Shown: positions 48,183 to 64,000 of the stretch, piece by piece
Numbering within the stretch: the stretch's first letter is position 1
Layout of the letters: every line of letters begins with the position of its first letter
Source of the DNA: Spongiivirga sp. MCCC 1A20706
GTDB lineage: Bacteria > Bacteroidota > Bacteroidia > Flavobacteriales > Flavobacteriaceae
Length of the DNA stretch: 64,000 bases
Assembly: GCF_046524175.1 (NCBI RefSeq)
Contig: NZ_JBEFZF010000002.1
Coordinates: 107,304 to 171,303 of the forward strand
Reading direction: 5' to 3'
The notes under the pieces: generated by a model
What the model saw: the letters and a program-made list of their open reading frames with translations, nothing else
Database searches by the model: none
What the model was told of the DNA's origin: nothing
Made by a program: the position numbers and the translations under genes

Positions 48183-48201
48183 GCTAAGCAAAATAAAAAA
48201 A

Positions 48202-48858
48202 ATGAAATCAGGTCAGTTTTTAATAGTATCATTTTTAATGTTGTTGCATTGGAATAGCGTTATATCCCAATCAATAAATATAGGCGAGAAGCAAAATGAA
48301 AAGAAAGTTAGTGCTGTTAACAGAGATATTCAGGTGGATGAAAAAAACCGCGATGCAATAGTGTTTAATGCGCAAGAAGGAGATGGTCTCGGTATATTAG
48401 AAGATCAATCATTTGAACATGGCAAATTGATGTTGTCAATAAAAGGAGAGAATAAACCAGGAAGAAGTTTTGTAGGCTTCGCTTTTAATATTCAAAATGA
48501 CTCCGTGTACGAAGCAATTTATTTTCGCCCATTCAATTTTGTTGCTAAAGAACAAATAAGAAAATCTCATATGGTTCAATACATATACCATCCTGAGTTT
48601 ACCTGGAAAAAATTAAGAGAAGAGCGAACAGGTGAGTTTGAGAATGAAATAGTAAATCCGCCGAATCCAGACGAATGGTTTAAGGCAATAATTGATATTG
48701 ATAAGAACTATGTAACTGTTTTTGTAAATGATTCAAAAACACCCTCACTTAAAGTTAAACGCCTTACCAAGACAAAATCACATAAAGTTGGGCTTTGGAC
48801 CGGCTTTAACTCAGCAGGAAAATTTAAAGATTTAGAATTCATAACAATCAAGAAATGA
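48202..48858 (+). CDS. Secreted hypothetical protein (218 aa) inserted between adaptor and ATPase genes
   Basis: Signal peptide MKSGQFLIVSFLMLLHWNSVISQ. Overlaps the ATPase start by 4 nt. Confidence 0.55.
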   Translation: MKSGQFLIVSFLMLLHWNSVISQSINIGEKQNEKKVSAVNRDIQVDEKNRDAIVFNAQEGDGLGILEDQSFEHGKLMLSIKGENKPGRSFVGFAFNIQNDSVYEAIYFRPFNFVAKEQIRKSHMVQYIYHPEFTWKKLREERTGEFENEIVNPPNPDEWFKAIIDIDKNYVTVFVNDSKTPSLKVKRLTKTKSHKVGLWTGFNSAGKFKDLEFITIKK

Positions 48859-49559
48859 TACAGACAAAGAACTTAAAAAAGAGTTTTAGAACCGAAGAAG
48901 TTGAAACTTTAGCGCTTAACAACGTAAACCTAAGTGTGGCCGAAGGCGAGTTTGTCGCAATTATGGGACCTTCAGGATGTGGGAAATCTACCCTGCTAAA
49001 TATTATAGGGATGTTAGATAACCCTACAGAAGGAACCTATCATTTTGCAAATCATGAAGTGGGTGGGTTAAAAGAAAATCAGCGTACAGGAATTAGAAAA
49101 GGAAATCTTGGGTTCGTTTTCCAGAGTTTTAACCTAATCGATGAATTAACGGTTTTTGAAAATGTAGAGTTGCCACTTATTTATTTAAATATGAAAAAAA
49201 GTGAGCGCAAGGAGAAGGTACTTAAGGTCCTTGAGCGAATGAAAATTGCACATCGCGAAAAGCATTTTCCGCAGCAGTTATCTGGAGGGCAGCAACAGCG
49301 TGTGGCTATTGCAAGAGCTGTGGTAACTAACCCTAAGCTAATTCTTGCTGATGAGCCAACAGGAAACCTTGATTCTAAAAACGGAATTGAGGTAATGAAC
49401 TTATTAACCGAGCTTAATCAAGAAGGGACTACCATAGTAATGGTAACACACTCTGATCGTGATTCGCATTACGCCCACCGAGTGATCAACCTTTTTGATG
49501 GACAAATTGTAACAGAAAGTCAGAACAAACCATTTGCAGCTGCGGCTCCATCAGCCTAG
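48855..49559 (+). CDS. ABC transporter ATP-binding protein (MacB/LolD-type)
   Basis: Walker A GPSGCGKST. Signature LSGGQQQRVAIARA. Walker B LILADEPT. H-loop VTHS. Confidence 0.9.
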   Translation: MIQTKNLKKSFRTEEVETLALNNVNLSVAEGEFVAIMGPSGCGKSTLLNIIGMLDNPTEGTYHFANHEVGGLKENQRTGIRKGNLGFVFQSFNLIDELTVFENVELPLIYLNMKKSERKEKVLKVLERMKIAHREKHFPQQLSGGQQQRVAIARAVVTNPKLILADEPTGNLDSKNGIEVMNLLTELNQEGTTIVMVTHSDRDSHYAHRVINLFDGQIVTESQNKPFAAAAPSA

Positions 49560-49735
49560 CGCAGTTTTTTAAAAAAGACATCAATCAACCAATTAAATCA
49601 GGACTTACAAGGTTTTAAAAATCTAAACATCATCAATCAAAAATCAATCAACCACAACCATAAACCTTGTAAGTCTTTTACCTATTAACCACTTGTGCTG
49701 AACATGTTTCAGTATCATCAAAAAACGAGTCAGTT

Positions 49736-52126
49736 ATGTTTAAAAACTATATCAAGATAGCCTTTAGAAACCTTTGGAGAAGAAGAGGGTTTTCTGCAAT
49801 TAACATTATCGGGCTTGCCGTAGGTTTAAGCGCAACGTTTCTTATTGTATTATACATCAGTTTTGAGCTAAGCTATGATACTTTCCATACTAAAAAAGAT
49901 AATATTTATCGTTTAATAGCTGATGTCGAAGTCCCAAATGATGTTTTAGAAATTGATCGCCCAGCACTGGCCGTTCCTTCTCATTTAAAAGATGACTTTG
50001 AAGAAATAGAAGACGCCGTTCGCGTAATGGGTCTATCCTTGGCGGTTCGAAATGGGGATTTAAAATTTAAAGAGGAAAATGCAGTTGCTGTAGACGCCAC
50101 TTTTTTCGACATGTTCGATTATAACCTAATACAAGGAGATCAAGTAACTGTTTTAAAAGAACCATATTCTGTAGTACTAACCCCCGAGACATCAAAGCGA
50201 TATTTTGGTACTGAAAACAGCATAGGCAAAACCTTAAAAATAAAAAATGAAGATATAAATGATTTAAGTTTTACGGTCACCGGCATTATGGAAGCGGCAC
50301 CACAAAACTCACGTTTTCGACCGGAGTTACTTATTTCTTTTTCTACTTATTTTGATGGGGTCATGACCAACATAAATGATATGTGGGGAACTTATGATCC
50401 CGAGGCGTATGTCCGGATAAACCCCAATGTAAATGTGGCACAACTACAATCGAAGTTTCCTGCTTTTTTAGAGAAACATACCGGGGACCAAATGCGTCAA
50501 GATAAATCGTTGGTTACCTTAAAAATGGAGCCATTTCAAGATGTGTATTTGCGGTCTAATCGTAATCAAGGATTGAGTGGTGACATGAATTCTATTTATA
50601 TTTTTTCAATAATTGCCATTTTTATACTGCTCATCGCTTGTATTAATTTTATCAATTTAACTACAGCCCGATCGGTAGAACGGGCAAAAGAAGTTGGAGT
50701 AAGGAAAGTAATTGGTGCAGAAAAAAGCCAACTGTCAAGACAGTTTATAGGCGAATCAATTATCATAGCGATATTAGCATTTTTTGTGTCAGTTGTTTTT
50801 TCGGCTATTGCCTTACCAGCTTTTAAGGAACTAGTGGGGAAGGAAATTAGTGAGGGAATTTTCTCAAATCCAAACTACATACTGGCCTTATTTATAACCT
50901 CATTGTTAATTGGCGCGCTTGCCGGAATTTATCCAGCGTTTGTACTTTCTTCTTTTAAGCCAGTTAATGTATTAAAGGGTAATTTTTCAACCGGAACTCG
51001 AGGTATTTTATTACGAAAAGGATTGGTAATTGCCCAGTTCACCATTTCTATTGCGTTGATAATAGGTACGATTGTAATCTATAAGCAAATGGATTATATG
51101 AGTAATCAAGAACTTGGTTTTAATAAAGAACATGTCGTTGTTTTAGAAACCGGTTATGTGCCGGAAAGAAAAATCCTTCAGCAAAAATTAAATAGAATAC
51201 CAGGGATAAAATCAACTAGTTATACCTCTAGTATTCCCGGGGTTCAAAGCAATGTAGCATATTCATTAATTGAAGATAGCACCAATGAACAGTTGGTGGT
51301 GCATATCGATGCTTTCTTTGTTGACTATGATTTTATGAATCAATACGGCTTAAAAGTCTTAGCAGGAAGACCATTCTCTGAAGATTTTGCAAAAGACTCT
51401 ACGTCTTCAATGATTATTAATGAACGAGCAGTAGCGCTATTGGGTTATGCCTCTCCAGAAGATGCGCTGGGGGCAAGTTTTTCTCAGTGGGGGAAAAAAG
51501 GAGAAGTGATTGGTGTGGTTCAAGATTTTCACTTTAAGTCACTACAGGAGAACATTAACCCTATGAGCATTACGGTTTCGCCATCAGGGGGAGATTTTTT
51601 ATCCGTTACCGTGAGCTCAAATGATATCGCCCAAACGATGGCTGGTATTGAGAAAGAATGGAATGAGGTCTTGCCAACAAACCCATTTAACTACTATTTT
51701 TTAGATGAAGCTTTTGACAGGCAATACAGAACTCATGAACGTTTTGGGAAGATATTTGTCAATTTCGCCGTATTGGCAATATTCATTTCGTGCCTTGGCT
51801 TATTGGGCCTTGCTGCTTATAGCATGTTGCAACGCCGTCGCGAAATAGGCATTCGTAAAGTACTTGGTGCTTCCGTTAGCACCGTGGTGAATTTACTTTC
51901 AATAGAATTTATGAAACTTGTAGGGATTGCATTTTTAATCGCTGCGCCCATTGCGTGGTTCGCGATGCGATCATGGTTAGACAATTTTGCTTATAAAATA
52001 GATCTGCAGTGGTGGATATTCGTTCTTGCAGGAATAACAGCATCAATCATAGCCTTAGCAACAGTTGGTTTTCATGCGGTTAAGGCATCATTAGCTAACC
52101 CTGTTCATAGTTTACGAGCAGAGTAA
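49736..52126 (+). CDS. FtsX-family ABC permease, MacB-like double-FtsX (paralogue 1 of 7)
   Basis: About 800 aa. MFKNYIKIAFRNLWRRRGFSAINIIGLAVGL N-terminus. Two 4-TM FtsX modules each followed by a periplasmic domain. Conserved C-terminal ANPVHSLRAE. Confidence 0.85.
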   Translation: MFKNYIKIAFRNLWRRRGFSAINIIGLAVGLSATFLIVLYISFELSYDTFHTKKDNIYRLIADVEVPNDVLEIDRPALAVPSHLKDDFEEIEDAVRVMGLSLAVRNGDLKFKEENAVAVDATFFDMFDYNLIQGDQVTVLKEPYSVVLTPETSKRYFGTENSIGKTLKIKNEDINDLSFTVTGIMEAAPQNSRFRPELLISFSTYFDGVMTNINDMWGTYDPEAYVRINPNVNVAQLQSKFPAFLEKHTGDQMRQDKSLVTLKMEPFQDVYLRSNRNQGLSGDMNSIYIFSIIAIFILLIACINFINLTTARSVERAKEVGVRKVIGAEKSQLSRQFIGESIIIAILAFFVSVVFSAIALPAFKELVGKEISEGIFSNPNYILALFITSLLIGALAGIYPAFVLSSFKPVNVLKGNFSTGTRGILLRKGLVIAQFTISIALIIGTIVIYKQMDYMSNQELGFNKEHVVVLETGYVPERKILQQKLNRIPGIKSTSYTSSIPGVQSNVAYSLIEDSTNEQLVVHIDAFFVDYDFMNQYGLKVLAGRPFSEDFAKDSTSSMIINERAVALLGYASPEDALGASFSQWGKKGEVIGVVQDFHFKSLQENINPMSITVSPSGGDFLSVTVSSNDIAQTMAGIEKEWNEVLPTNPFNYYFLDEAFDRQYRTHERFGKIFVNFAVLAIFISCLGLLGLAAYSMLQRRREIGIRKVLGASVSTVVNLLSIEFMKLVGIAFLIAAPIAWFAMRSWLDNFAYKIDLQWWIFVLAGITASIIALATVGFHAVKASLANPVHSLRAE

Positions 52127-52181
52127 TCAATCAATCAATCAAAAAGCTGAACTTGTTTCAGCATCAAAAAACGAATTAGTT

Positions 52182-54611
52182 ATGTTTAAAATATATCTTA
52201 AAGTAGCCTGGAGAAACTTAGTAAAAAATAAGCTTCAGTCGTTCATAAACATATTAGGTCTAACCGTTGGAACACTTAGTTGTTTATGCATATTAGTTTA
52301 TGTTTCCGGTCAATTGGGGTACGATAAACATTATGCAGACGCAGATTCAATTTACCGAATACAAACTCATATTAATATGAGTGGTGAAATTGTACAAAAT
52401 ACGCATACAGCTACTAGCGGACCTCCAATAGCATTTGCGATGAAGGAAGATTTTCCTGAGGTAGCGGAAGCCTGCCGACTTGTTTACTTCGGTGAAGGAA
52501 ACGAAAGTTTAATGCGAGCAGCAGATAGTAATACAGGCTATTATGAGCCCAGAGGATATGTAGCAGATTCTACTTTCTTCAATATTTTTAACTATCCGCT
52601 TATAGAAGGAACAGCAAAAGATGCATTGTCATCGCCAAGTTCAGTGGTTCTATCATCAGAACTGGCAAAAAAGATATTTGGTAATGAAAAATCGCTGAAC
52701 AAAGTACTAGTATTGGGGGCGGGCGAAAACGCAATGAACGTAACTGTAAAAGGTGTTTTTGATGAAAATTTTGGAAAAACACATCTGAACCCAAACTATG
52801 TTTTAACGATGAATTCTCCTGGCTTAGGAGAGTTTGTGCGTAATGAAGATAATTATGCGACTCAAAACTTCACTCATTCATATGTAAAGCTAATTCCCGG
52901 TGCAAACGAAGTCTCTTTAGAAAAGAAACTTCCGGCATTTTTGCAAGAGCGTGGTGCTGAAGATTTGGCACAAGTGGGGTTCGATAAGAGACTAAGCTTA
53001 CACCCTTTAACTGAAATTCATTTATACTCAAAGGGAATTGCCAACCAAATAGACAAAGTGTCCAATATTCAAACGCTATATATCATGTTGATACTAGCAT
53101 TGATTATTCAGGTAGTTGCATGTATCAATTTTATTAATCTAAGCACCGCAAGAGCCAATAAAAGAGGTAAAGAAATAGGTGTAAGAAAAGTCGTTGGGGC
53201 AAAAAAGAGCTCTTTGGTGAGACAGTTTTTAGGCGAGTCATTGTTTTTATCACTTTTTGCGACATTAATCACAATACCACTGACCATTATTCTGCTTCCT
53301 TTTTTAAATGAAATTACTCAGGGGAGTGCAACTATAATGGATGTACTAAATGTCAAAATCCTTATTGCGCTTTTGGTACTTGGGGTGATTACTGGATTGG
53401 TAGCCGGTTTTTATCCGGCACTTGTTTTATCATCGATAAAACCGATCAAGGTATTGAAAGGTGTGGTGAACCTTAAGTCTTCTAATGGAAACTTCAGAAA
53501 AGCACTAGTTGTTTTTCAGTTTATAGTTTCTATTGGGCTCATTACGACGGTAATTATAGTCTCTCAGCAAATAAAATATGTACAAACTAAGGACATTGGT
53601 TTTGACAAAGAGAATTTACTGGCAATTCGTTTAGGAACAGATGAGCTTTCTAATAAGTACGATGCTATCAAAACTCAAATCTCTAAGGTTGCAGGTGTTT
53701 CAGAAGTTACAGGGAGTAATCATTACCCTTCAGAATTTATATTGGGCGATTTAGGGATGCATCTTCCCGGTGGTGACCCTTCGCAGCAAACACTTGTGCA
53801 TTATACAGGAGTATCTGAAAATTACTTCAATACGGTAGGCACTCCTTTGCTAACAGGTAGAAGGCTTCGCGCTAACGACAGTACCCAAGTATTAGTAAAT
53901 AAATCGACCATTGATGCCTTTAATATTCCGCTTGATAAAGCCGCCGGTGCCAAACTGGTGCAAAGCTATGAAGGTCAAAGTACCGAATATGAAATAGTAG
54001 GCGTTGTAGAAGATTATCACTTTGCAAGCCTAAAAGAAAGTATAGAACCCATGCTGTTGTTTTATGAAGATGAACCCAACTGGGTGGTTTTAAAAACCGA
54101 AACAAAAGATTTAGCCTCTTTGCTGTCGAATTTAGAAACAAGCTGGAAATCAGTGAATCCCTACGCTCCTTTTGAATATACATTTATTGATGATAATGTA
54201 CAGAAAATGTTTGCTGAAGAGCAACGTCTTAGTAAGATAGCCAAGGTGTTTACGTTCCTTGCAATTTTAATTAGTTGTCTGGGCTTATTAGGACTTATTT
54301 CGTACATCGCCGAACAAAAGAAAAAGGAAATAGGAATTCGAAAAGTTTTAGGAGCCAGCGTGCAAAGTGTGGTGAAATTAATCACTAAAGATTTTGTGAA
54401 GTTAGTGGTCATTGCTTTCGTAATTGCATCGCCTATTGCATATTTTTTAATGAATCAATGGCTAGAAGAATTTGCCTATAAAATAGACATCAGCTGGTGG
54501 GTTTTTGCCTTAGCCGGAGGAGCAGCAATGATCATAACACTGTTTACTGTAGGATTTCAATCCATTAAATCTGCAGTAGCCAACCCAGTGAAGAGTTTGC
54601 GTACAGAATAA
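52182..54611 (+). CDS. FtsX-family ABC permease (paralogue 2)
   Basis: Same architecture. Ends NPVKSLRTE. Confidence 0.85.
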   Translation: MFKIYLKVAWRNLVKNKLQSFINILGLTVGTLSCLCILVYVSGQLGYDKHYADADSIYRIQTHINMSGEIVQNTHTATSGPPIAFAMKEDFPEVAEACRLVYFGEGNESLMRAADSNTGYYEPRGYVADSTFFNIFNYPLIEGTAKDALSSPSSVVLSSELAKKIFGNEKSLNKVLVLGAGENAMNVTVKGVFDENFGKTHLNPNYVLTMNSPGLGEFVRNEDNYATQNFTHSYVKLIPGANEVSLEKKLPAFLQERGAEDLAQVGFDKRLSLHPLTEIHLYSKGIANQIDKVSNIQTLYIMLILALIIQVVACINFINLSTARANKRGKEIGVRKVVGAKKSSLVRQFLGESLFLSLFATLITIPLTIILLPFLNEITQGSATIMDVLNVKILIALLVLGVITGLVAGFYPALVLSSIKPIKVLKGVVNLKSSNGNFRKALVVFQFIVSIGLITTVIIVSQQIKYVQTKDIGFDKENLLAIRLGTDELSNKYDAIKTQISKVAGVSEVTGSNHYPSEFILGDLGMHLPGGDPSQQTLVHYTGVSENYFNTVGTPLLTGRRLRANDSTQVLVNKSTIDAFNIPLDKAAGAKLVQSYEGQSTEYEIVGVVEDYHFASLKESIEPMLLFYEDEPNWVVLKTETKDLASLLSNLETSWKSVNPYAPFEYTFIDDNVQKMFAEEQRLSKIAKVFTFLAILISCLGLLGLISYIAEQKKKEIGIRKVLGASVQSVVKLITKDFVKLVVIAFVIASPIAYFLMNQWLEEFAYKIDISWWVFALAGGAAMIITLFTVGFQSIKSAVANPVKSLRTE

Positions 54612-54659
54612 TCAATCAAACTTAGCCGAACTTGATTCAGCATCAAAAACGAATACGTT

Positions 54660-57044: not shown

Positions 57045-57065
57045 TCATCATCAAAATAATCAATC

Positions 57066-59480
57066 ATGTTTAAAAGTTATCTAAAAATTGCTTGGAGAAG
57101 CCTCCTAAAGAACAAGGGGTTTACGTTCCTCAATATTATTGGACTTTCGGTTGCATTTGGTGCTGCTATACTACTCAGTATGGCCGCACTTTTTGAGTTA
57201 TCGTACAATCAGTTTCATGAAAATACCGACGATATTCAGCAAGTGTATATCACTTCTCAGCGAATCAAAGGACCCGAAGCAAATACCTCACATCCTATTC
57301 CACTTGCATCAACCTTAAAGGAAGAAATACCTGGAATTTCAAAAATTACGAGGCATTTAGAAGAAAACACCTTGCTCGCCTATAAAGACAAGGAGTTAGG
57401 AGCTGATCTTACATGGGTAGATCCCGATTTTTTCTCAATTTTTTCATTTCCGATACTTGAGGGAAACAGCCAAAACCCTTTTGAAGAAGGAAATACCGCT
57501 GTATTAGCTAGGGAATTAGCAACTGCCGTTTTTGGTGATGACAATGCAATTGGTAAGACCATAAATTTAATGGTTGAAGGCCAGGCAAGACCTTTTCAGG
57601 TAACTGCTATTATTGAAGATGCACCACAAAACAGTACAATGGATTTTGAGGTTTTAGTCAATTTCAAAAATATACCGGGTCATGATGAAGCAATGGACGA
57701 TTGGGGATCTAGCAATCATCAAGTATTTTTAATATTAGATGAAGGTGTTACCACGGCACAATTTGAGACTGCCACAAATTCATTTGTCAATTTACATTAC
57801 ACCAATGAAATTGAGAATGCAAAGCGTGATGGCGTTTCAGTAGATAAGGAAGGTCAATATGTAAACTTAAGCTTATCTCCTTTTAAGGATGCTTATTTTA
57901 CCGGTTACTCAAGAGGTACTGCGACCACTAATAAAAGTCTTCCATATATCGTTTTAGGAATCGCTTTTTTAATCCTGTTTATCGCTAGTGTGAACTTCAT
58001 TAACATGAGCATCGCCAAAAACACAGGGCGACTGCAAGAAATTGGAATGCGAAAAACATTAGGTGCAGCAAAACGACATGTATTCTTTCAATTTTGGAAT
58101 GAGAGCATTTTAATATTTCTGGCAACTATTATTATAGGAACCTTATTAAGTGCATTGTTACTAGACGACTTTAAAATCTTATTCAGAACAGGAGCGACCT
58201 ACAGTAATACCTTTTCTCCAGCGATTTTAACCGGCGCGTTTATCATATTTTTTATCATAACATTAATTGCTGGGGGTTATCCCGCACTGTTGCTTACTAA
58301 ACTAGGAACACTTCAAGCCCTAAAAGGAAAGTTAGAAGTAAAAAGCGGTAACGCTTTGCGCAATGTGTTAATGGTCGTGCAGTTTGCAATTGCAATTTTG
58401 TTAATCAGTGGCACATTTGTGCTGTGGGGGCAACTGGAGTATATGCGTACCAAAGATCTTGGTTATAATAAGGAGCAAGTTGTATCAGTGCCTTTAAACG
58501 GAAAGAAAAACTCGTACACCGCGGTTCAGTTATTACGGGAAGAGCTTTCAGGAAATAGTAATATTCTAAGCGTTTCAGGATCAGATAATGCCTTGGGGCG
58601 TGGTAAAGATGGAAGCGCCTATATAAGTCGATTAGGCTTCGATTATAAGGACCGTTCAGTCAAAACTCATATGTTGGTGGTAGACTATGATTACCCAAAA
58701 ACACTCGATCTAGAATTGATCAACGGACGAACTTTTAATAGAGATTTTGCTGCCGATAGCTTATCGGTAGTGATTAACGAGGCAATGGCGAAAGAACTTG
58801 GAGAAGAAGATCCTGTAGGAAAGCGTTTCATTCTTAGTGATAGTATCAATTATACAATCGTTGGACTTGTTAAAGATTATCACTTCCATAAATTGGATAA
58901 AACAATAGAACCTCTCACTCTTTTCATGAATAATGATTGGGATCTATACTATGCATATATCAAAGTAGCACCTGAAAATCTCGCTTCATCATTTAGTGCA
59001 ATTGAAACCGCATGGAAGGCCATAGAACCGAATGCGGAGTTTTTGGGTTCTTTTTTAGATGAGAATATCGACCGTGCATTGCGTCGTGAAAAAATAATGA
59101 TCACCATCATCACTAGTGGGGCAATTGTAGCAATTATTCTTAGCTGTATCGGATTGTTGGCAATTTCACTTCTGGTGGTTAACCAACGCACCAAAGAAAT
59201 TGGGGTTAGAAAAGTGGTAGGAGCCAGTGTCGCTTCGCTTGCAGTATTACTAGCGAAAGACTTTGTAAAGTTGGTTGTTATAGGATTTGTACTAGTGGTG
59301 CCTTTTGCTTGGTTCGCTGCAAAAAATTGGCTAGAGGGCTATACCTATCATGTCGACCTTTCTATTTGGTTTTTTATTGCCGCAGGAGCATTGGCGGTTC
59401 TGATCGCATTAGCAACCATTAGTACAGGGACAATTCGGGCGGCATTGCAAAACCCAGTTAAGAGTTTGCGTACAGAGTAG
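57066..59480 (+). CDS. FtsX-family ABC permease (paralogue 4)
   Basis: Same architecture. Ends NPVKSLRTE. Confidence 0.85.
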   Translation: MFKSYLKIAWRSLLKNKGFTFLNIIGLSVAFGAAILLSMAALFELSYNQFHENTDDIQQVYITSQRIKGPEANTSHPIPLASTLKEEIPGISKITRHLEENTLLAYKDKELGADLTWVDPDFFSIFSFPILEGNSQNPFEEGNTAVLARELATAVFGDDNAIGKTINLMVEGQARPFQVTAIIEDAPQNSTMDFEVLVNFKNIPGHDEAMDDWGSSNHQVFLILDEGVTTAQFETATNSFVNLHYTNEIENAKRDGVSVDKEGQYVNLSLSPFKDAYFTGYSRGTATTNKSLPYIVLGIAFLILFIASVNFINMSIAKNTGRLQEIGMRKTLGAAKRHVFFQFWNESILIFLATIIIGTLLSALLLDDFKILFRTGATYSNTFSPAILTGAFIIFFIITLIAGGYPALLLTKLGTLQALKGKLEVKSGNALRNVLMVVQFAIAILLISGTFVLWGQLEYMRTKDLGYNKEQVVSVPLNGKKNSYTAVQLLREELSGNSNILSVSGSDNALGRGKDGSAYISRLGFDYKDRSVKTHMLVVDYDYPKTLDLELINGRTFNRDFAADSLSVVINEAMAKELGEEDPVGKRFILSDSINYTIVGLVKDYHFHKLDKTIEPLTLFMNNDWDLYYAYIKVAPENLASSFSAIETAWKAIEPNAEFLGSFLDENIDRALRREKIMITIITSGAIVAIILSCIGLLAISLLVVNQRTKEIGVRKVVGASVASLAVLLAKDFVKLVVIGFVLVVPFAWFAAKNWLEGYTYHVDLSIWFFIAAGALAVLIALATISTGTIRAALQNPVKSLRTE

Positions 59481-59503
59481 TTTTTAACCAAAAAATTAAA
59501 AAA

Positions 59504-61912
59504 ATGATTACTAGTTATTTGAAAACAACATTTCGATCATTAATAGCCAACCCAGTATTTACTGGTTTAAATGTTTTTGGTTTGATAGTAGGATTCTCTG
59601 TAATGTATTTAGCATCTGGGTATTTAATTTTTGAAAATAGCTATGATACATTTCATGAAAACAGCGAAGAATTATACCGTGTTGCAAGAAAGATAAGGTC
59701 CCAAGACTATGCAGTTGTGGGCTTTAATGATAGCACTGCCGAGGAGCAAGAAAAGCAAATAGAGACAATTAAGAACATCACCGGAATAAAGAATGCTACT
59801 CAATTTATGGTTTTCAATGAGGTTGAATACCTAAATAAGGATGGGAAAAATTATGAAATAAAGCAAGTATTACATACCAACACCCCAGAGTCATTTGTGA
59901 AAATGTTTTCTTGGCAAATTTTGTCCGGCTCATTGGATAGTTTCTACGATAGTCCAAACACCGTTATGTTAACTGAATCGGAAGCGAAAAGGATTTTTGA
60001 ACAGGATATTTCGCAAGTCGTAGGTGAAACTGTTGAAATCGATGGTATAAACTTTCGCATCGCAGCAGTGATAAAAGATGTTCCTAAAAATTCTCATTTC
60101 GACTTTCAACTTGCTTTAAATCAGAAAACGATCAACTATTGGGGGAGTCATTTATATGTACAGCTAGCACCTAAGATTGATTTAGCTGGCCTTAAAACAA
60201 CGTTTGACTCTGAAATGAAAAAAATAATACCTCGTTTGGCCAATTCTGAAATACACAAAGGGCATTTTTTTCAACCAATAACTGATATCCATTTAAAGTC
60301 TAATATTCTATATGAATTAAAAACACCCGGTAACATTCAGTATATATACATTATTGGGATAGTGGGTTTTTTGATTTTAGTAATCACCATTTTTAATTAT
60401 ACCAATTTCACGCTGGCGCTTAAAGCGAAAAAATCAAAAACAATTGGGGTAAGAAAAGTAATGGGGGCATCTAGTAACAACATAGTCAAACAGTTTGTGG
60501 TAGAAGCAATAGTATTAGTCATTTTGTGTATGCCAGTTACTTTTTTACTAATAAGTGTTATCACTCCAATTTTTAATGAATTTATGGGAGTACAGTTGGC
60601 CTCCAATATGCTAACAGAACCATTAACCCTGCTGTATTTTGTTATTCTTGCATTGGTATTTGGAGTTTTGTCCAGCATTGCTCCTGCATTTTTGTTATCA
60701 AAAAGAAAGGCAATAACGTTATTCAACGAAAAATTAAAAGAAAAGAGCTTTCAACAGTTTTCGCTAAGAAAATATCTTGTGATCAGCCAATTTTCAATTT
60801 TAATTGGTGTTACCTGTGTTTCCTATTTCATGTATCAACAAATAAAATATATAGAAGATAAAGATGTAGGGTATAACAGCAAGAATTTAATTTACACCTA
60901 TTCCTCAGAGGAGACGTTAGACTTGTTTCAAAAAGAAATAAGAGCAATACCAGGAGTTAATTATGTGGGTAACGGGTCCTCTTTCGCGATAGAAACATTC
61001 AACAACATTAATTATAAAATTGAAGATTCTGATGAAGTTTTTTCAGATTCAAATCAGTTTTATCTTGATTATGATGCCATTCAGGCTTATCAATTAAAAA
61101 CCACATTGTCGCCTGAAATTTTTAATTCAACTGAAAAGCGATTTAGGCGAACACTAATAAATAGATCGGCAGCTGAACGCTTTGCGGCTATTAGGCAAGT
61201 TAGTCCTGACAATATTATTGGAATGACTGTTGTTACAGAACCTTCTTACCAAAATGAAGATGGTACTATGGGGTTTCCTTTTACAGTAGATGGTATTTAT
61301 GAAGACATTAATGTGTTTTCATTAAAGGAAAACATTACCAGTTATTTTATTACTGTTTCTGATAGAGTTAGAATGTCTGGGCGCAGTATAGTTTCGGTTG
61401 ATGCTTCAATAATGCCAGAAGTAGTTAACAAAATAAAGGCCATACACAGTGATCTTGATGAAAAAAACCCTTTACAAATAGAATACGCAGATAATAGCTT
61501 TCAAGAATTACATAAACAGGATTCAAAAACTGCTAATCTCATTTTTATTTTAAACTTCTTGGCGACATTTTTAGCGTTCTCAGGAATAATTGGTATCACT
61601 TTACTCTTAGTAGTAGGGAAGACTAAGGAGATCGGGATTCGGAAAATATTAGGTGCTTCATTGTATGCGATACTTAAATTATCGGTAAAAGAATATATCT
61701 CTTTTATTATTGTTTCTTTCCTAATAGGAGCGCCCATAGCTTGGATTGTAATTAGAAAGTGGCTTTCAAACTTTGCTTATAAAGTGCAAATACAGCCGAC
61801 CGTTTTTTTGTTGGTACCGCTATTTACTTTTTTACTGATAGCTTTAGTAGTTGGAGGAGTATCCTTTCAAGCAGCTCGCGCAAATCCTGTAAAAAGTTTA
61901 CGAACCGAATAA
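59504..61912 (+). CDS. FtsX-family ABC permease (paralogue 5, most diverged)
   Basis: MITSYLKTTFRSLIANPVFTGLNVFGLIVGF. Ends NPVKSLRTE. Confidence 0.8.
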   Translation: MITSYLKTTFRSLIANPVFTGLNVFGLIVGFSVMYLASGYLIFENSYDTFHENSEELYRVARKIRSQDYAVVGFNDSTAEEQEKQIETIKNITGIKNATQFMVFNEVEYLNKDGKNYEIKQVLHTNTPESFVKMFSWQILSGSLDSFYDSPNTVMLTESEAKRIFEQDISQVVGETVEIDGINFRIAAVIKDVPKNSHFDFQLALNQKTINYWGSHLYVQLAPKIDLAGLKTTFDSEMKKIIPRLANSEIHKGHFFQPITDIHLKSNILYELKTPGNIQYIYIIGIVGFLILVITIFNYTNFTLALKAKKSKTIGVRKVMGASSNNIVKQFVVEAIVLVILCMPVTFLLISVITPIFNEFMGVQLASNMLTEPLTLLYFVILALVFGVLSSIAPAFLLSKRKAITLFNEKLKEKSFQQFSLRKYLVISQFSILIGVTCVSYFMYQQIKYIEDKDVGYNSKNLIYTYSSEETLDLFQKEIRAIPGVNYVGNGSSFAIETFNNINYKIEDSDEVFSDSNQFYLDYDAIQAYQLKTTLSPEIFNSTEKRFRRTLINRSAAERFAAIRQVSPDNIIGMTVVTEPSYQNEDGTMGFPFTVDGIYEDINVFSLKENITSYFITVSDRVRMSGRSIVSVDASIMPEVVNKIKAIHSDLDEKNPLQIEYADNSFQELHKQDSKTANLIFILNFLATFLAFSGIIGITLLLVVGKTKEIGIRKILGASLYAILKLSVKEYISFIIVSFLIGAPIAWIVIRKWLSNFAYKVQIQPTVFLLVPLFTFLLIALVVGGVSFQAARANPVKSLRTE

Positions 61913-61937
61913 TCAATCATCATAAATCAATCAAAGA

Positions 61938-64000
61938 ATGTTTAAGAATCACTTAAAAATAGCATGGCGAAGTATTTTAAAAGATAAACTGTTTACGAGT
62001 ATAAAAATTGGCGGTTTTGCCGTTGGTATCGCCGCCTGTTTACTCATTACCTTTTTTATAAAAGATGAGTTAAGTTACGATAAGCATTACGAGAAAAAAG
62101 ATCAGATTTACAGAGTTGTTTTTCAGGGGATGTTCAATGGTGAGGTAATGAAAAGTGTTCATTTTCCATTGCCCTTTGCAGAAGCACTTCAAAACGACTT
62201 TCCTGAAATAACAAAGGCAGGAAAGGTAAACGCTTCAGAACTTTTCGGAGCCGGCAAACGTTCTTTAAAAGTTAGTGGCAAGTCAAGAAATAACTTAGAA
62301 GATGGGTTTTTACTGGCGGATCAGAATGCACTAGAGGTACTAGAAATATCACTCGGAGAAGGCGACCTTGAAAGCGCAATGACGCAGCCTAAAAGCATGG
62401 TAATGTCACACGAAAAAGCAAAAATCTACTTTCCTAACGGTAATGCTGTTGGTAAAACAGTGGTTTTAGATGACAATCCTGACGAAACGTATACCGTAAC
62501 TGGGGTGATAAATCCTTCATTACATAAATCGCATTTAAACTTTGATTTCTTGTTGAGGATTGAGGATCAAAACATGAATTGGACGCATCAAAATTATTAT
62601 ACCTATATACAAGTTGCTCCTAACACAAATGTCGCCGATTTAGAAAAAAAGATGTTTTCGATAATGGAAGATTACATCATTCCCGCACAAATTGAACGAA
62701 GTAGATCGGCAGATTTTATAGAAGTTTTAAAAACCATTGAGTATAAGCTACAGCCAATCGCAGATGTACATTTAAAATCTGATATAAGAATGAACGACGG
62801 ATTGCGGCATGGAGATATCAGATTTGTTTGGTTGTTTGGTGCTATCGCAATTTTTATATTGTTATTGGCTTGCATCAATTTCATCAACTTATCAACTGCA
62901 AAATCGGCTAACCGAGCAAAAGAAGTCGGATTACGAAAAACGGTGGGAGCCTTCAAGCGAAATCTCGTTACCCAGTTTTTAACGGAGTCGGTGCTGTTTA
63001 GCATCGCTTCGTTCGCACTGGGAATTTTATTGACATGGTTGTTGCTTCCTACATTCAATGAAATAGCAGGAAAAAGCATTAGTATGCCTTGGGGACAAGT
63101 ATGGTTTGTTACCATTCTTCCTTTAGCCGCTTTAGTAGTAGGGCTTGTTGCCGGGCTATATCCGGCATTTTATTTATCGGCATTTAGACCGGTCAATGTA
63201 TTAAAAGGGAGTTTACAAGTAGGAGCTAAAAGCGGGAAACTGAGAAGTGGCCTTGTCATATTTCAGTTTACGACCTCGGTTGTTCTGATCATAAGTACAT
63301 TGGTTATTTATAAGCAAATGGACTTTATCCTTCAAAAGGAATTGGGTTATGAAAAGGAGCAAGTACTGGTAATTAACGGGGCTGAATCGCTTGGAAAAAA
63401 GGTGGAGAGCTTTAAAAATCAGTTAAGTGAGTTATCATTTGTAAGCCAAGTATCTCAAAGCGGGTATTTACCAGTAGATGGTTACGAGCGCAATGGGAAT
63501 ACATTTAAAAATGAAGGAGAGGGAGCGGAAACAAGGGGTGTACCAGGTCAAATATGGCGAGTTGATTATAGCTATCTAAATACGCTTGGAATTAAATTAA
63601 AACAGGGGCGAGATTTTTCAGAAGAATATGCCTCTGATGCCTCCGAAGCCATTATTATTAACGAGAAAATGGCTGGCCAATTAGGTCTTGAAAATCCGAT
63701 AGGTAAGTTTATTAATAACAACTATGCCACTTGGAAGATTGTTGGGGTTATTGAAGATTTTCATTTTAAATCGCTAAAAGAAGATATTCAACCGCTGTCT
63801 CTAGTGATCGGCAGAAATTACGGCGCCATCATGATTAAGTTAAAAGGAAACTCCATCAATGAAGCGGTTTCATCGGTAGCGTCTGTTTGGAATAAAAATA
63901 TGCCCGATCAAAATTTCAGCTATACCTTTTTAGACCAAGACTTTGCAACGATGCATCAAGATGTAAAACGAATGGGAGTGATTTTTAACAGCTTTGCATT
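61938..64000 (+). CDS. FtsX-family ABC permease (paralogue 6 of the tandem set, seventh transporter-related gene in the operon); 3' end beyond window
   Basis: ATG at 61938 opens MFKNHLKIAWRSILKDKLFTSIKIGGFAVGIAAC..., in frame to the window end. Absent from the ORF track because it has no stop. Confidence 0.8.
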   Translation, partial: MFKNHLKIAWRSILKDKLFTSIKIGGFAVGIAACLLITFFIKDELSYDKHYEKKDQIYRVVFQGMFNGEVMKSVHFPLPFAEALQNDFPEITKAGKVNASELFGAGKRSLKVSGKSRNNLEDGFLLADQNALEVLEISLGEGDLESAMTQPKSMVMSHEKAKIYFPNGNAVGKTVVLDDNPDETYTVTGVINPSLHKSHLNFDFLLRIEDQNMNWTHQNYYTYIQVAPNTNVADLEKKMFSIMEDYIIPAQIERSRSADFIEVLKTIEYKLQPIADVHLKSDIRMNDGLRHGDIRFVWLFGAIAIFILLLACINFINLSTAKSANRAKEVGLRKTVGAFKRNLVTQFLTESVLFSIASFALGILLTWLLLPTFNEIAGKSISMPWGQVWFVTILPLAALVVGLVAGLYPAFYLSAFRPVNVLKGSLQVGAKSGKLRSGLVIFQFTTSVVLIISTLVIYKQMDFILQKELGYEKEQVLVINGAESLGKKVESFKNQLSELSFVSQVSQSGYLPVDGYERNGNTFKNEGEGAETRGVPGQIWRVDYSYLNTLGIKLKQGRDFSEEYASDASEAIIINEKMAGQLGLENPIGKFINNNYATWKIVGVIEDFHFKSLKEDIQPLSLVIGRNYGAIMIKLKGNSINEAVSSVASVWNKNMPDQNFSYTFLDQDFATMHQDVKRMGVIFNSFA

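What the first reader, a model, noticed from the sequence alone, without database searches (positions are those of the whole stretch)
49736..64000. Seven tandem MacB-like double-FtsX permease paralogues served by a single ATPase, adaptor and outer-membrane factor
- **Seen in sequence:** after one outer-membrane factor, one adaptor and one MacB-type ATPase come seven consecutive permease genes of about 800 aa each. All share the N-terminus MFKNYLKIAWRNL..., double 4-TM FtsX architecture and the C-terminal NPVKSLRTE, but have diverged periplasmic domains.
- **Established knowledge:** Bacteroidota genomes contain many such permeases.
- **Inference:** a seven-fold array behind one ATPase suggests combinatorial substrate specificity (peptide, bacteriocin or lipid extrusion), with the periplasmic domains acting as interchangeable specificity modules. 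This would be under control of the divergent sigma54 two-component system.
Basis: partly seen in the sequence, partly recalled or inferred. Interest (0 to 1): 0.5.

Follow-up and report, generated by a model that had tools for sequence, protein, structure and literature searches.

The report
Tandem array of fused MacB-type permeases
A marine flavobacterium carries one set of efflux-pump parts (outer-membrane channel, adaptor, ATPase) followed by a very long row of old, diverged double-FtsX permease genes; this kind of locus has been reported before, but what it does is still unknown.

Summary
The region is real, but the count is wrong. The window (Spongiivirga sp. MCCC 1A20706) holds five complete permease genes and one truncated one, not seven. 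Protein accession numbers run in sequence along the locus. They show 15 protein genes between the ATPase seen in the window and a second ATPase beyond its end. Related genomes carry 12 and at least 15 consecutive permeases.

Each permease is a direct 4+4 fusion: periplasmic domain–FtsX–periplasmic domain–FtsX, with 8 TM helices. It resembles the ADOP and DarB families and has the MacB (type VII ABC) fold.

The paralogues are ancient, at 21–36% identity. Periplasmic domains are about 24% identical between paralogues but 80–94% between same-genus orthologues, under purifying selection. The best-conserved segments lie where MacB-type permeases contact their ATPase.

The arrays differ between close relatives by whole-gene gain, loss and reordering. 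One 2,432-bp cassette (P5) is missing from a 95–98% identical relative, and the breakpoint lies inside the conserved C-terminal motif.

The divergent sigma-54 two-component system, a conserved palindrome and a TGGCAY-N5-TAG element recur in three genera.

The idea of shared pump parts with alternative permeases is plausible but untested. A ten-paralogue cluster of this kind was published for Psychroflexus torquis in 2014.

The parts
42581..43942 (-). Sensor histidine kinase (453 aa). It has two N-terminal TM helices joined by a loop of about 5 residues, so no periplasmic sensor domain, followed by a PAS domain and HATPase_c.
43927..45342 (-). Sigma-54-dependent response regulator (471 aa): receiver domain, Sigma54_activat AAA+ domain and HTH_8. 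The GAFTGA loop reads GSFTDA.
   Evidence: Sigma54_activat E 3.5e-67. It lies divergent to the outer-membrane factor gene in the window, MAG L009, Croceitalea L003 and Aquimarina L007.
45449..45465 (+). Conserved palindrome TGTATAAAATTTTTACA in the divergent intergenic region. It is a candidate enhancer (binding site for the response regulator).
   Evidence: Alignment A1 of three genera. The assignment as a binding site is inference.
45529..45543 (+). Candidate sigma-54 promoter TGGCACGGCGATAGT. The -24 element is canonical; the -12 element reads TAGT instead of TTGC. It begins 45 nt before the outer-membrane factor start codon.
   Evidence: It is the only match in the window (0.4 expected by chance). 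The form TGGCAY-N5-TAG is conserved in Croceitalea and Aquimarina.
45574..46932 (+). TolC-family outer-membrane factor (452 aa; MFP2995196.1).
   Evidence: Pfam OEP E 4.9e-45.
46932..48182 (+). Membrane-fusion (periplasmic adaptor) protein (416 aa; MFP2995197.1).
   Evidence: TIGR01730 scores 145 bits, above its 94.9-bit cut-off. The best named match is DarC, 198 bits, below its cut-off. HlyD_3. MacA and RND adaptors are the closest solved structures by sequence.
48202..48858 (+). Secreted 218-aa protein with a concanavalin-A-like / DUF1080 beta-sandwich fold (MFP2995198.1, ABN763_04780, annotated hypothetical). Its stop overlaps the ATPase start by 4 nt.
   Evidence: Weak PF06439 hit; 30 of 41 family members match PF06439. 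AF2 model pLDDT 94.6. Foldseek finds DUF1080 'glycosyl hydrolase', galectin-like and CBM66 structures. A 219-aa counterpart lies at the same place in MAG L009.
48855..49559 (+). ATPase1, a MacB/LolD/DarD-type ABC ATPase (234 aa; MFP2995199.1). All catalytic motifs are present.
   Evidence: It is 89-90% identical across three genera.
49600..49677 (+). 16-bp stem with a 46-nt A/C-rich loop, followed by UUUU, inside the 176-nt spacer between ATPase1 and P1.
   Evidence: MFE -28.8 kcal/mol, z -4.3. The arms are conserved in MAG L009 with one G-U-compatible change. Function unknown.
49736..52126 (+). P1, fused double permease (796 aa; orthogroup A; MFP2995200.1).
   Evidence: AF2 model pLDDT 85 with 8 TM helices. 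Foldseek finds YbbP, MacB and LolCE. Orthologues are 86% identical in Croceitalea, 63% in Aquimarina and 54% in Arcticibacter.
52182..54611 (+). P2, fused double permease (809 aa; orthogroup F; MFP2995201.1).
   Evidence: Present in L010 and the MAG. No orthologue among the 11 fully read S. citrea permeases.
54660..57044 (+). P3, fused double permease (794 aa; orthogroup C; MFP2995202.1).
57066..59480 (+). P4, fused double permease (804 aa; orthogroup B; MFP2995203.1). The P3/P4 order is inverted relative to S. citrea and the MAG.
59504..61912 (+). P5, fused double permease (802 aa; orthogroup P; MFP2995204.1). It is the most divergent paralogue (21-28% identity to the others) and has the lowest G+C (0.334).
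   Evidence: No orthologue in any other locus read here. The best relatives found are 48% identical.
59468..61899 (+). 2,432-bp one-cassette indel (last codons and stop of P4, the P4-P5 spacer, and P5 up to its last four codons). It is absent from the 95-98.5% identical contig L010. The crossover lies in AGTTT, within the sequence coding the conserved NPVKSLRTE motif.
   Evidence: blastn and three-way junction alignment A5.
61938..64000 (+). P6, fused double permease, truncated by the window end (687 of 805 aa; orthogroup D; MFP2995205.1).
   Evidence: It is 100% identical to P0121; accession.

Best explanation
**What it is (shown).** This is the front part of one very long gene cluster in Spongiivirga sp. 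MCCC 1A20706 (Flavobacteriaceae).
- A divergently transcribed sigma-54 two-component system faces an operon.
- The operon first encodes the shared parts of a MacAB-TolC-like (type VII ABC) envelope exporter: a TolC-family channel, a membrane-fusion adaptor, a secreted lectin-fold accessory protein and a MacB/LolD-type ATPase.
- A tandem array of fused-dimer permeases follows (periplasmic domain-FtsX-periplasmic domain-FtsX, 8 TM helices, ADOP/DarB-like).
- The window shows 5 complete genes and 1 truncated gene. The genome has 15 protein genes between ATPase1 and a second ATPase. Seven of these are shown to be permeases, and three more are inferred from a near-identical contig.

**How it most likely works (inferred).**
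- Each permease is a pseudo-heterodimer that does the job of a MacB dimer.
- It binds two ATPase subunits through its N-terminal helix, two coupling helices and C-terminal helix. These are the best-conserved segments in all paralogues.
- It docks to the common adaptor and outer-membrane channel.
- The alternative permeases therefore build a family of pumps that share an engine and an exit duct. They differ in their periplasmic domains, which take different substrates from the periplasm or the outer leaflet of the inner membrane and expel them.
- Expression is probably driven from a sigma-54 promoter upstream of the outer-membrane factor gene, under the neighbouring kinase and regulator.

**How it evolves (shown for one event).** The repertoire changes by gain, loss and reordering of whole genes, through recombination at the conserved gene ends.
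For: **Parts and architecture**
- Pfam and NCBIfam assignments.
- 8 TM helices from hydropathy and from the AF2 model (pLDDT 85, pTM 0.79).
- Foldseek matches YbbP (E 2e-20), MacB, Spr0695, LolCE and BceB.

**Operon character**
- All genes lie on one strand. Gaps are -4 to 55 nt, apart from one 176-nt spacer.
- No excess of terminator-like sites.

**Array size**
- Accession numbers run in sequence: MFP2995196-205 for the outer-membrane factor through P6, 207 for an 807-aa permease, and 215 for ATPase2.
- L010, 95-98.5% identical, continues after P6 with genes of 811, 807, 794 and 816 aa.
- S. citrea has 12 permeases followed by ATPase2. The MAG has at least 15.

**Conserved design**
- Aquimarina muelleri: sigma-54 regulator, divergent from outer-membrane factor-adaptor-ATPase1-Toastrack protein-5 permeases-ATPase2.
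- Croceitalea marina: two-component system, divergent from outer-membrane factor-adaptor-ATPase1-permeases.

**Shared interface, divergent periplasmic part**
- Among 29 non-redundant paralogues, conservation is highest in the N-terminal helix (0.73), the two cytoplasmic coupling loops E(V/I)G(V/I)RKV.GA (0.64 and 0.69; peaks 0.75 and 0.91) and the C-terminus (0.73; peak 0.87). It is lowest in the periplasmic domains (0.38).
- That these segments contact the ATPase is taken from published MacB and YbbP structures (PMC5985334, PMC12646458).
- ATPase1 is 89-90% identical across genera in which the permease orthologues are about 63% identical.

**Distinct, maintained specificities**
- Periplasmic domains are 24% identical between paralogues. 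Between orthologues they are 80-94% identical within the genus and 54% to Aquimarina.
- dN/dS is 0.02-0.08 in both periplasmic and TM parts.
- 25 orthogroups occur in nine loci.

**Regulation**
- A conserved palindrome and TGGCAY-N5-TAG are present in three genera.
- A published computational survey found sigma-54 promoters enriched upstream of FtsX-type permease genes in Bacteroidia (PMC12316311).

**Cassette turnover**
- P5 indel with its junction in the conserved motif.
- Order and content differ between loci.
Against: - No experiment shows that these permeases bind ATPase1, the adaptor or the outer-membrane channel.
- The conserved cytoplasmic segments are conserved across the whole family, including copies that are not next to pump genes. 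They are necessary for sharing but do not prove it.
- There are two ATPases, 54% identical and both with complete motifs. The engine may therefore be a heterodimer, or each ATPase may serve a subset of permeases.
- ADOP-type permeases are, as I recall the TIGR03434 description, typically found away from ATPase genes. The Arcticibacter locus has an adaptor and an ATPase but no Pfam-recognisable outer-membrane factor or two-component system in the region read. The link to the outer-membrane channel is therefore not universal.
- The 176-nt spacer holds a strong hairpin followed by UUUU. It could separate the pump genes from the permeases at the transcript level.
- The -12 element of the candidate sigma-54 promoter is non-canonical. 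The pattern has a 34% chance of occurring at least once somewhere in a window of this size.
- The genes MFP2995206 and 208-214 could not be read directly.
- Substrates are unknown, and no biosynthetic genes lie nearby.
Confidence: 0.55

Rival explanations
1. The permeases are stand-alone type VII ABC 'extractors' or mechanotransducers, like LolCDE, FtsEX-EnvC or YbbAP-TesA. Each one, with an ATPase dimer, would act on inner-membrane lipids, lipoproteins or a periplasmic partner enzyme. None would use the adaptor or the outer-membrane channel, which would serve only one or a few of them.
For: - The best full-length structural match is YbbP, which is not an efflux pump.
- The family is very large and many copies lie away from pump genes. 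Dyadobacter genomes carry 28-33 copies. The arrays in L001 and L002 were not shown to have pump genes beside them. The Arcticibacter locus has no Pfam-recognisable outer-membrane factor.
- Secreted accessory proteins sit inside the operons: the ConA-like 218-aa protein here and Toastrack/DUF2807 proteins in Croceitalea and Aquimarina. This recalls the TesA partner of YbbAP.
Against: - The outer-membrane factor-adaptor-ATPase genes head the array in the window and in three related loci, spanning three genera, with tight gene spacing.
- The best named NCBIfam matches of the adaptor and the ATPase, and the second-best match of the permease, are to the DarBCD trans-envelope exporter.
Confidence: 0.2
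2. The array exports the cell's own products (lipids, glycolipids, pigments or peptides) rather than defending against external toxins. This would resemble DarBCD for darobactin or DevBCA-HgdD for heterocyst glycolipids.
For: - Similarity to DarB, DarC and DarD. darBCD deletions lower the darobactin titre 2- to 4-fold (PMC8442675).
- The homologous Psychroflexus torquis cluster is highly translated under ordinary culture conditions. Its authors considered deliberate release of products (PMC3914696).
Against: - No biosynthetic genes adjoin the operon in the window or in the related loci.
- Fifteen or so different exporters for endogenous products, in one operon under one stress-type regulator, would be unusual.
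- All Dar matches fall below the curated cut-offs.
Confidence: 0.15
3. The permeases act mainly as sensors or co-receptors for the neighbouring kinase, as in Bce-type flux sensing. The many periplasmic domains would widen the range of signals rather than the range of substrates.
For: - The kinase has two TM helices joined by about 5 residues and no periplasmic sensor domain. It must therefore sense from within the membrane, from the cytoplasm, or through a partner.
- BceAB is a structural relative.
Against: - The kinase has a cytoplasmic PAS domain and is NtrB/AtoS-like, not BceS-like. The regulator is NtrC-type, not OmpR-type.
- BceB has 10 TM helices and one extracellular domain, unlike these proteins.
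- Sensing would not need an adaptor and an outer-membrane factor.
- This role could also exist alongside efflux.
Confidence: 0.08
4. The array is functionally redundant: gene dosage, or duplicates that are decaying.
For: Copy number and content vary between close relatives.
Against: - All reading frames are intact.
- Paralogues are 21-36% identical, and each has orthologues across genera or classes.
- dN/dS is 0.02-0.08.
Confidence: 0.03

Closest known systems
ADOP-family permease cluster of Psychroflexus torquis ATCC 700755 (genomic island 43; Feng et al. 2014, PMC3914696)
   Same: It is also in the Flavobacteriaceae. It is a 42-kb cluster with about ten paralogous duplicated permeases carrying the MacB periplasmic domain, next to other transporter genes that include ATP-binding ones. 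The proteins are abundant and their function is unknown.
   Different: I could not compare the P. torquis sequences directly. That paper does not describe the design with an outer-membrane factor, an adaptor, two ATPases and a sigma-54 two-component system. It also does not describe the 8-TM fusion, the orthogroup turnover or the cassette indel found here.
ADOP family, TIGR03434 (Acidobacterial duplicated orphan permease)
   Same: It is the best-scoring NCBIfam family, aligned end to end (P1 residues 6-796 on model positions 5-803). It has the same duplicated PCD-FtsX architecture.
   Different: Scores fall below the curated cut-off (323.8 and 174.4 against 622.3 bits). The permeases here are not 'orphans', because ATPase genes flank the array. 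The organism belongs to the Bacteroidota, not the Acidobacteria.
DarBCD darobactin exporter (Photorhabdus)
   Same: It has the same three-part design: a fused double permease of about 780 aa (DarB), an adaptor (DarC) and a separate ATPase (DarD). DarC and DarD are the best named matches of the adaptor and the ATPase, and DarB is the second-best match of the permease. Function is described in PMC8442675.
   Different: DarBCD has one permease and sits in a RiPP gene cluster. All scores here are below the equivalog cut-offs. There are no darA or darE neighbours. Here there are many permeases and a dedicated outer-membrane factor.
MacAB-TolC (E. coli), the type VII ABC tripartite pump
   Same: It shares the FtsX 4-TM unit with a periplasmic domain, the MacA-type adaptor, the TolC-type channel and the MacB-type nucleotide-binding domain.
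   Different: MacB is a homodimer with its nucleotide-binding domain fused at the N-terminus. Here two permease units are fused into one chain, the ATPase is a separate protein, and many alternative permeases follow one set of pump genes.
YbbAP-TesA (E. coli) and BceAB (Firmicutes), fused type VII permeases
   Same: Each permease is a single-chain pseudo-dimer that binds two separate ATPase subunits. YbbP also has two periplasmic domains, and it is the best full-length structural match.
   Different: YbbP and BceB have 10 TM helices (4+2+4), with two linker helices. These proteins have 8 (4+4), joined by a short cytoplasmic linker. Sequence identity is 14%. YbbAP is not part of a tripartite pump.
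DevBCA-HgdD glycolipid exporters of cyanobacteria (from my own knowledge; not tested here)
   Same: It is a MacB-type permease with an adaptor, an ATPase and a TolC-like channel, and it occurs as several paralogous sets per genome. DevA and DevB models match the ATPase and the adaptor weakly.
   Different: DevC is a single 4-TM unit. The paralogues occur as complete three-gene sets, not as a permease-only array behind one set.

Membership tests
Type VII ABC (MacB/FtsX) superfamily | FtsX 4-TM unit with a large periplasmic domain between TM1 and TM2 | tested here: met
   MacB_PCD and FtsX are present in every gene, mostly twice each. The AF2 model has two TM1-PCD-TM2-4 units.
Type VII ABC (MacB/FtsX) superfamily | Fold similar to solved MacB, LolCE or YbbP structures | tested here: met
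   Foldseek finds YbbP at E 2e-20, MacB at 2e-14 and LolE at 3e-11. The periplasmic domain matches 3is6 with TM-score 0.78 normalised to the target.
Type VII ABC (MacB/FtsX) superfamily | Partner ATPase of the MacB/LolD/FtsE clade | tested here: met
   ATPase1 matches DarD, MacB, LolD and FtsE models. The closest solved chains are Spr0694, MJ0796, the MacB nucleotide-binding domain and LolD.
Type VII ABC (MacB/FtsX) superfamily | Mechanotransmission: work is done on the periplasmic side, with no transport across the inner membrane | not testable with these tools
   Requires biochemistry or structures in different nucleotide states.
MacAB-TolC-type tripartite efflux pump | Membrane-fusion adaptor and TolC-family channel encoded together with the permease | tested here: met
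   Outer-membrane factor: PF02321, E 5e-45. Adaptor: TIGR01730 above its cut-off. The same order is found in three related loci.
MacAB-TolC-type tripartite efflux pump | MacB architecture: nucleotide-binding domain fused to a single 4-TM permease that forms a homodimer | tested here: not met
   The ATPase is a separate 234-aa protein, and the permease is a fused double unit of about 800 aa.
MacAB-TolC-type tripartite efflux pump | Physical assembly with the adaptor and channel, and efflux activity | not testable with these tools
   Not addressed by sequence.
ADOP (TIGR03434) | Full-length match above the curated cut-off | tested here: not met
   P1 scores 323.8 bits and P5 174.4 bits, against a cut-off of 622.3. 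The alignment is end to end.
ADOP (TIGR03434) | 'Orphan': no ABC ATPase gene nearby (recalled from the family description) | tested here: not met
   ATPase1 lies directly upstream. ATPase2 lies downstream in this genome and in relatives.
DarBCD exporter | Equivalog-level match of the permease, adaptor and ATPase | tested here: not met
   DarB 156.8 bits against 700, DarC 198.2 against 450, DarD 297.1 against 375.
DarBCD exporter | Placement within a darA/darE RiPP gene cluster | tested here: not met
   No precursor or radical-SAM gene lies next to the operon. The only radical-SAM gene (3787-5181) is 40 kb away and of another type.
YbbP/BceB-type fused permeases | 10 TM helices (4+2+4) | tested here: not met
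   8 TM helices by hydropathy and in the AF2 model. The YbbP topology is taken from PMC12646458.
Sigma-54-dependent (NtrC-type) two-component regulation | Regulator with receiver, sigma-54-interaction AAA+ and HTH_8 domains | tested here: met
   (Sigma54_activat E 3.5e-67, Response_reg, HTH_8).
Sigma-54-dependent (NtrC-type) two-component regulation | GAFTGA sigma-54 contact loop | tested here: inconclusive
   The loop reads GSFTDA, which keeps the F-T core. I did not check whether this variant is functional.
Sigma-54-dependent (NtrC-type) two-component regulation | -24/-12 promoter (TGGCAC-N5-TTGC) upstream of the target operon | tested here: inconclusive
   The site reads TGGCAC-N5-TAGT at 45529-45543. 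The -24 element is canonical and the -12 element is not. It is conserved as TGGCAY-N5-TAG in three genera, together with an upstream palindrome.

The most novel reading that the evidence does not exclude
The locus is a modular 'plug-in' efflux system. One engine (possibly an ATPase1-ATPase2 heterodimer matched to the asymmetric fused permease), one adaptor and one outer-membrane duct would be shared by about 15 alternative single-chain permeases. The repertoire would be reshuffled between strains by whole-cassette gain, loss and reordering. Recombination at the conserved gene ends (the NPVKSLRTE-coding motif and the conserved 5' end) would drive this. The array would then behave like an evolvable library of efflux specificities, rather than a fixed set of paralogues.
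Probability: 0.3. Interest if true: 0.65.

Novelty: new member of a known kind. Interest (0 to 1): 0.45.

Why it matters
Fused 8-TM 'ADOP-type' permeases are one of the largest uncharacterised transporter families in the Bacteroidota.

No member has a solved structure or a known substrate. The main review of the MacB family lists only the 10-TM fusion.

This locus offers a clean, testable arrangement: one regulator pair, one outer-membrane channel, one adaptor, two ATPases and about 15 permeases in a culturable sponge-associated flavobacterium. Near-identical relatives differ by single cassettes.

If the permeases share one set of pump parts, this would be a new way for a cell to widen its efflux range. 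It would also explain why Bacteroidota carry so many of these genes. If they do not, the array points to many separate envelope 'extractor' machines.

Tried and rejected
- **Fetching the source contig beyond the window.** Exact look-ups of P5, ATPase1 and P6 found nothing. I used accession order and the near-identical contig L010 instead.
- **Genome-contig scan with P5.** It returned only relatives at 48% identity. They showed four-gene arrays but not the source genome.
- **Sigma-70 promoter and terminator scan of 45000-64000.** Counts were at or below the shuffled expectation, so the scan was uninformative. Bacteroidota promoters are also not covered by it.
I rejected this because at 21-36% identity the synonymous sites are saturated. 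I computed dN/dS between orthologues instead. Even there dS is 0.6-2.7 or saturated, so the ratios are rough.
- **A conserved 'last permease plus ATPase2' pair.** The genes next to ATPase2 in S. citrea (orthogroup T) and Aquimarina (orthogroup K) are not orthologous.
- **The 234-aa ORF at L002:21434-22138.** I first took it for an ATPase. It aligns poorly and lacks the ABC motifs, so I dropped it.
- **Horizontal transfer of P5 from base composition.** G+C is 0.334 against 0.374-0.388 for the other permeases, but close to the window average of 0.356. This is suggestive only.
- **Literature searches for functional work on this family in Bacteroidota**. Apart from the P. torquis and Dyadobacter mentions and the sigma-54 regulon survey, they found nothing.
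- **Sequence search of the PDB with the 218-aa protein** gave nothing. A fold search was needed.

Full report
**1. What is in the window**

Between 45574 and 64000 all genes lie on the + strand:
- a TolC-family outer-membrane factor (45574-46932, 452 aa);
- a membrane-fusion adaptor (46932-48182, 416 aa);
- a 218-aa ORF (48202-48858);
- an ABC ATPase (48855-49559, 234 aa);
- five complete ORFs of about 800 aa: P1 49736-52126, P2 52182-54611, P3 54660-57044, P4 57066-59480, P5 59504-61912;
- a sixth ORF, P6, which starts at 61938 and runs off the end of the window.

Every one of the six matches Pfam MacB_PCD and FtsX, mostly with two stretches each. The window therefore holds five complete permease genes and one truncated one, not seven.

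The shared N- and C-terminal motifs are real but only approximate.

Gene spacing is -4 to 55 nt, apart from a 176-nt gap between the ATPase and P1.

**2. Source and true size of the array**

P6 is 100% identical to an 805-aa protein of Spongiivirga sp. MCCC 1A20706. That contig could not be fetched. Exact look-ups still gave its protein accessions, and these run strictly in gene order:

| Accession | Gene |
|---|---|
| MFP2995196 | outer-membrane factor |
| 197 | adaptor |
| 198 | 218-aa protein |
| 199 | ATPase1 |
| 200-204 | P1-P5 |
| 205 | P6 |
| 207 | an 807-aa permease |
| 215 | a second ABC ATPase of 220 aa |

Fifteen protein genes therefore lie between the two ATPases.

A Logan contig (L010) is 95-98.5% identical in DNA to the window. 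After P6 it continues with permease genes of 811, 807, 794 and 816 aa. This fits accessions 206-209.

In relatives:
- Spongiivirga citrea has 12 consecutive permeases followed by the second ATPase.
- A related MAG has at least 15, and its array continues beyond what I could read.

The real array is therefore much longer than seven, and it is bracketed by two ATPases rather than served by one.

**3. Architecture of the permeases**

- Hydropathy predicts eight TM segments.
- An AlphaFold2 model of P1 (pLDDT 85, pTM 0.79) shows eight long helices: 17-45, 284-315, 330-367, 379-405, 421-456, 656-699, 714-748 and 759-786. It also shows two beta-rich periplasmic domains, two short cytoplasmic coupling helices (317-326 and 701-709), and N- and C-terminal amphipathic helices.
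- Foldseek against the PDB finds E. coli YbbP first (E 2e-20, 14% identity, TM-score 0.44). MacB, Spr0695, LolCE, BceB and HrtB follow. The periplasmic domain resembles the Porphyromonas gingivalis domain 3is6.
- YbbP and BceB have ten helices, with two linker helices between the duplicated halves. These proteins are a direct 4+4 fusion.
- Neither the sequence search nor the fold search found a solved structure of that form.
- The best NCBIfam family is ADOP (TIGR03434), followed by DarB. Both align end to end, and both score below their curated cut-offs.
- The adaptor and ATPase score best against DarC and DarD, also below cut-off. The adaptor passes the general TIGR01730 cut-off.

**4. Age and pattern of divergence**

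The six window paralogues are 21-36% identical to one another. By region, mean identity is as follows:

| Region | Mean identity between paralogues |
|---|---|
| Periplasmic domain 1 | 24% |
| Periplasmic domain 2 | 24% |
| First TM block | 35% |
| Second TM block | 44% |
| N-terminal helix plus TM1 | 44% |

Each paralogue has its own orthologues far outside the genus:
- P1 is 86% identical in Croceitalea, 63% in Aquimarina and 54-55% in Chitinophagaceae and Sphingobacteriia.
- P6 is 64-69% identical across many genera of Flavobacteriaceae.

Between orthologues the periplasmic domains are well kept: 72-94% within the genus (80-94% in all but one pair) and 54% to Aquimarina. dN/dS is 0.02-0.08 in both periplasmic and membrane parts. 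dS is near saturation, so these ratios are rough.

There is also no sign of diversifying selection. Each periplasmic domain looks like an old, stable and distinct entity.

**5. Conserved surfaces**

I compared 29 non-redundant paralogues (below 70% identity) from six loci. The most conserved segments are:
- the N-terminal helix (MFKNY.KIA.R);
- the two cytoplasmic loops E(V/I)G(V/I)RKV.GA;
- the ends of TM2 and TM6;
- the C-terminus NPVKSLRTE.

The periplasmic domains are the least conserved.

By analogy with the MacB and YbbP structures (PMC5985334, PMC12646458), the conserved segments are those that touch the ATPase. This fits a common ATPase partner. It does not prove one, because these segments are conserved across the whole family.

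ATPase1 is 89-90% identical between Spongiivirga, Croceitalea and Aquimarina. It is much more conserved than any permease. ATPase2 is 80% identical between S. citrea and Aquimarina, and 54% identical to ATPase1. Both carry complete Walker A, Q-loop, signature, Walker B and H-loop motifs. ATPase2 has GNLN where ATPase1 has GNLD in the D-loop.

**6. Conserved design and regulation**

The same layout recurs in several genomes:
- Aquimarina muelleri: sigma-54 response regulator, divergent from outer-membrane factor-adaptor-ATPase1-Toastrack (DUF2807) protein-five permeases-ATPase2.
- Croceitalea marina: kinase-regulator, divergent from outer-membrane factor-adaptor-ATPase1-P1 orthologue-Toastrack protein-permeases.
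- The MAG: the window's own arrangement, including the 219-aa protein.
- Arcticibacter: only adaptor-ATPase-four permeases.

An alignment of the regulator/outer-membrane-factor intergenic region from three genera shows two conserved blocks:
- a palindrome, TGTATAA..TTTTACA (window 45449-45465);
- TGGCAY-N5-TAG (window 45529-45543).

The second block has a canonical -24 element and a non-canonical -12 element. It is the only such match in the window, but the pattern is expected by chance 0.4 times per window.

The regulator has the full NtrC-type domain set, with a GSFTDA loop. The kinase has two TM helices with a loop of about 5 residues and a cytoplasmic PAS domain.

A 2025 survey reported that predicted sigma-54 promoters are enriched upstream of FtsX-type permease genes in Bacteroidia (PMC12316311). 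Control by the divergent two-component system is therefore well supported as an inference. It has not been shown.

**7. Cassette turnover**

I grouped permeases into orthogroups at 50% identity or more. This gave 25 groups across nine loci. Gene orders are related but differ:

| Locus | Order of orthogroups |
|---|---|
| Window | A F C B P D |
| L010 | F C B D G E H |
| MAG | A F B C G J D E I H U ... |
| S. citrea | [A] B C G J D E H Q R S T |
| Croceitalea | A I V K |
| Aquimarina | B I A E K |

P5 (orthogroup P) has no orthologue in any other locus read here. It is absent from the near-identical L010.

At the junction, L010 reads as window P4 up to ...AAGAGTTT. It then continues with the last codons of window P5 and the P5-P6 spacer. 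This is a 2,432-bp indel of exactly one cassette. The crossover lies in AGTTT, inside the sequence coding the conserved C-terminal motif.

DNA-level repeats with a period of about 2.4 kb exist at the gene starts, at the coupling-helix codons and at the gene ends. They could serve as substrates for such events.

The unit I saw being exchanged is the whole gene, not the periplasmic domain.

**8. The accessory protein**

The 218-aa protein has a signal peptide. About 960 cluster representatives match it, and 30 of 41 sampled members match PF06439 (DUF1080, 3-keto-disaccharide hydrolase).

Its AF2 model is confident (pLDDT 94.6). It is a concanavalin-A-like beta-sandwich that resembles Bacteroides DUF1080 proteins, galectin-like proteins and CBM66.

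Its role is unknown. There are precedents for periplasmic partners of type VII systems: TesA with YbbAP, and YbjP with MacAB-TolC (PDB 9qgy, listed).

**9. Interpretation**

Shown:
- the gene content;
- the 8-TM fused architecture (by prediction);
- the age of the paralogues and the domain pattern of their divergence;
- purifying selection on orthologues;
- the conserved operon design;
- the second ATPase;
- the cassette indel.

Inferred:
- that the permeases alternately use the same ATPase dimer, adaptor and outer-membrane channel to form pumps with different substrate ranges;
- that a sigma-54 promoter drives the operon;
- that the substrates are external or envelope-derived amphiphiles.

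I put about 0.55 on the shared-parts model. The main rival is that most permeases work as stand-alone extractors or mechanotransducers (0.2). Export of endogenous products (0.15) and a sensing role (0.08) are not excluded, and either could coexist with efflux.

**10. Novelty**

Clusters of ADOP-type paralogues in a member of the Flavobacteriaceae were published in 2014: Psychroflexus torquis, about ten paralogues in 42 kb, highly translated, function unknown (PMC3914696). High copy numbers in Bacteroidota genomes have also been noted (PMC11573002).

This locus is therefore a new member of a known, uncharacterised kind. The analysis here adds:
- the two-ATPase bracket;
- the conserved sigma-54 two-component context and its promoter and enhancer candidates;
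- the 8-TM direct-fusion topology;
- the orthogroup picture;
- a cassette indel mapped to the base pair.

I give 0.45.

Noticed in passing
window 49600-49677 (inside the 176-nt spacer between ATPase1 and P1): A 16-bp stem with a 46-nt A/C-rich loop rich in ATCAA repeats, followed by UUUU. MFE is -28.8 kcal/mol and z is -4.3. Both arms are conserved in MAG L009, with one G-U-compatible change. It could be an attenuator, an RNA-processing site or a stabiliser that sets the ratio of pump parts to permeases.
   Followed up: partly
window 49694-49722, 52145-52170, 54624-54649: A short hairpin motif, GCTGAAC-(A/T)TGT-TTCAGC followed by ATCA(A/T)CAAAAA, recurs in the spacers just upstream of the P1, P2 and P3 start codons (repeat families D10 and D17). 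Function unknown.
   Followed up: no
L006:17355-18017 and L007:17404-18066 (ATPase2 of S. citrea and Aquimarina); MFP2995215.1 in the source genome: The second ATPase, which closes the array, has Asn in place of the D-loop Asp (GNLN against GNLD in ATPase1). All its other motifs are intact. This may hint at an asymmetric ATPase1-ATPase2 heterodimer that matches the asymmetric fused permease.
   Followed up: partly
L003:12417-13175 and L007:4320-5069: In Croceitalea and Aquimarina the accessory gene inside the operon is a DUF2807 (Toastrack) protein, not the ConA-like 218-aa protein. PMC11237479 links Toastrack domains to envelope-stress signalling and to ABC transport operons.
   Followed up: partly
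window 38824-41791: A 125-aa ORF and an 866-aa DUF4132/DUF7737 protein sit between the WYL/WCX regulator (beside RtcB) and the small gene downstream of the kinase. This pair is absent at the same place in MAG L009, so it is a strain-specific insertion.
   Followed up: partly
window 41948-42277 (-): A 109-aa protein with a signal peptide and no Pfam match lies downstream of the kinase on the same strand. A 109-aa ORF occupies the same position in MAG L009; I did not compare the two sequences. It may belong to the two-component operon.
   Followed up: no
window 7159-8370 (-): A separate single-unit FtsX/MacB_PCD permease (403 aa, LolC/E-like size) lies elsewhere in the window and is unrelated to the array.
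   Followed up: no
window 25011-28166 (-): An H-NOX (haem-NO-binding) protein, a multi-PAS histidine kinase and a LytTR response regulator lie in a row. This is a likely NO- or O2-responsive signalling module.
   Followed up: no
window 17937-22041 (-): A family-2 glycosyltransferase, a TackOD1-domain protein (E 7.5e-55) and a UDP-glucose/GDP-mannose dehydrogenase lie together. TackOD1 is a little-studied output domain.
   Followed up: no
window 10001-16000: A low-G+C stretch (0.29-0.31, against a window mean of 0.356) holds a 451-aa protein ending in a LytTR domain, a 552-aa ORF with no Pfam match, and a TPR protein. It may be an acquired island.
   Followed up: no
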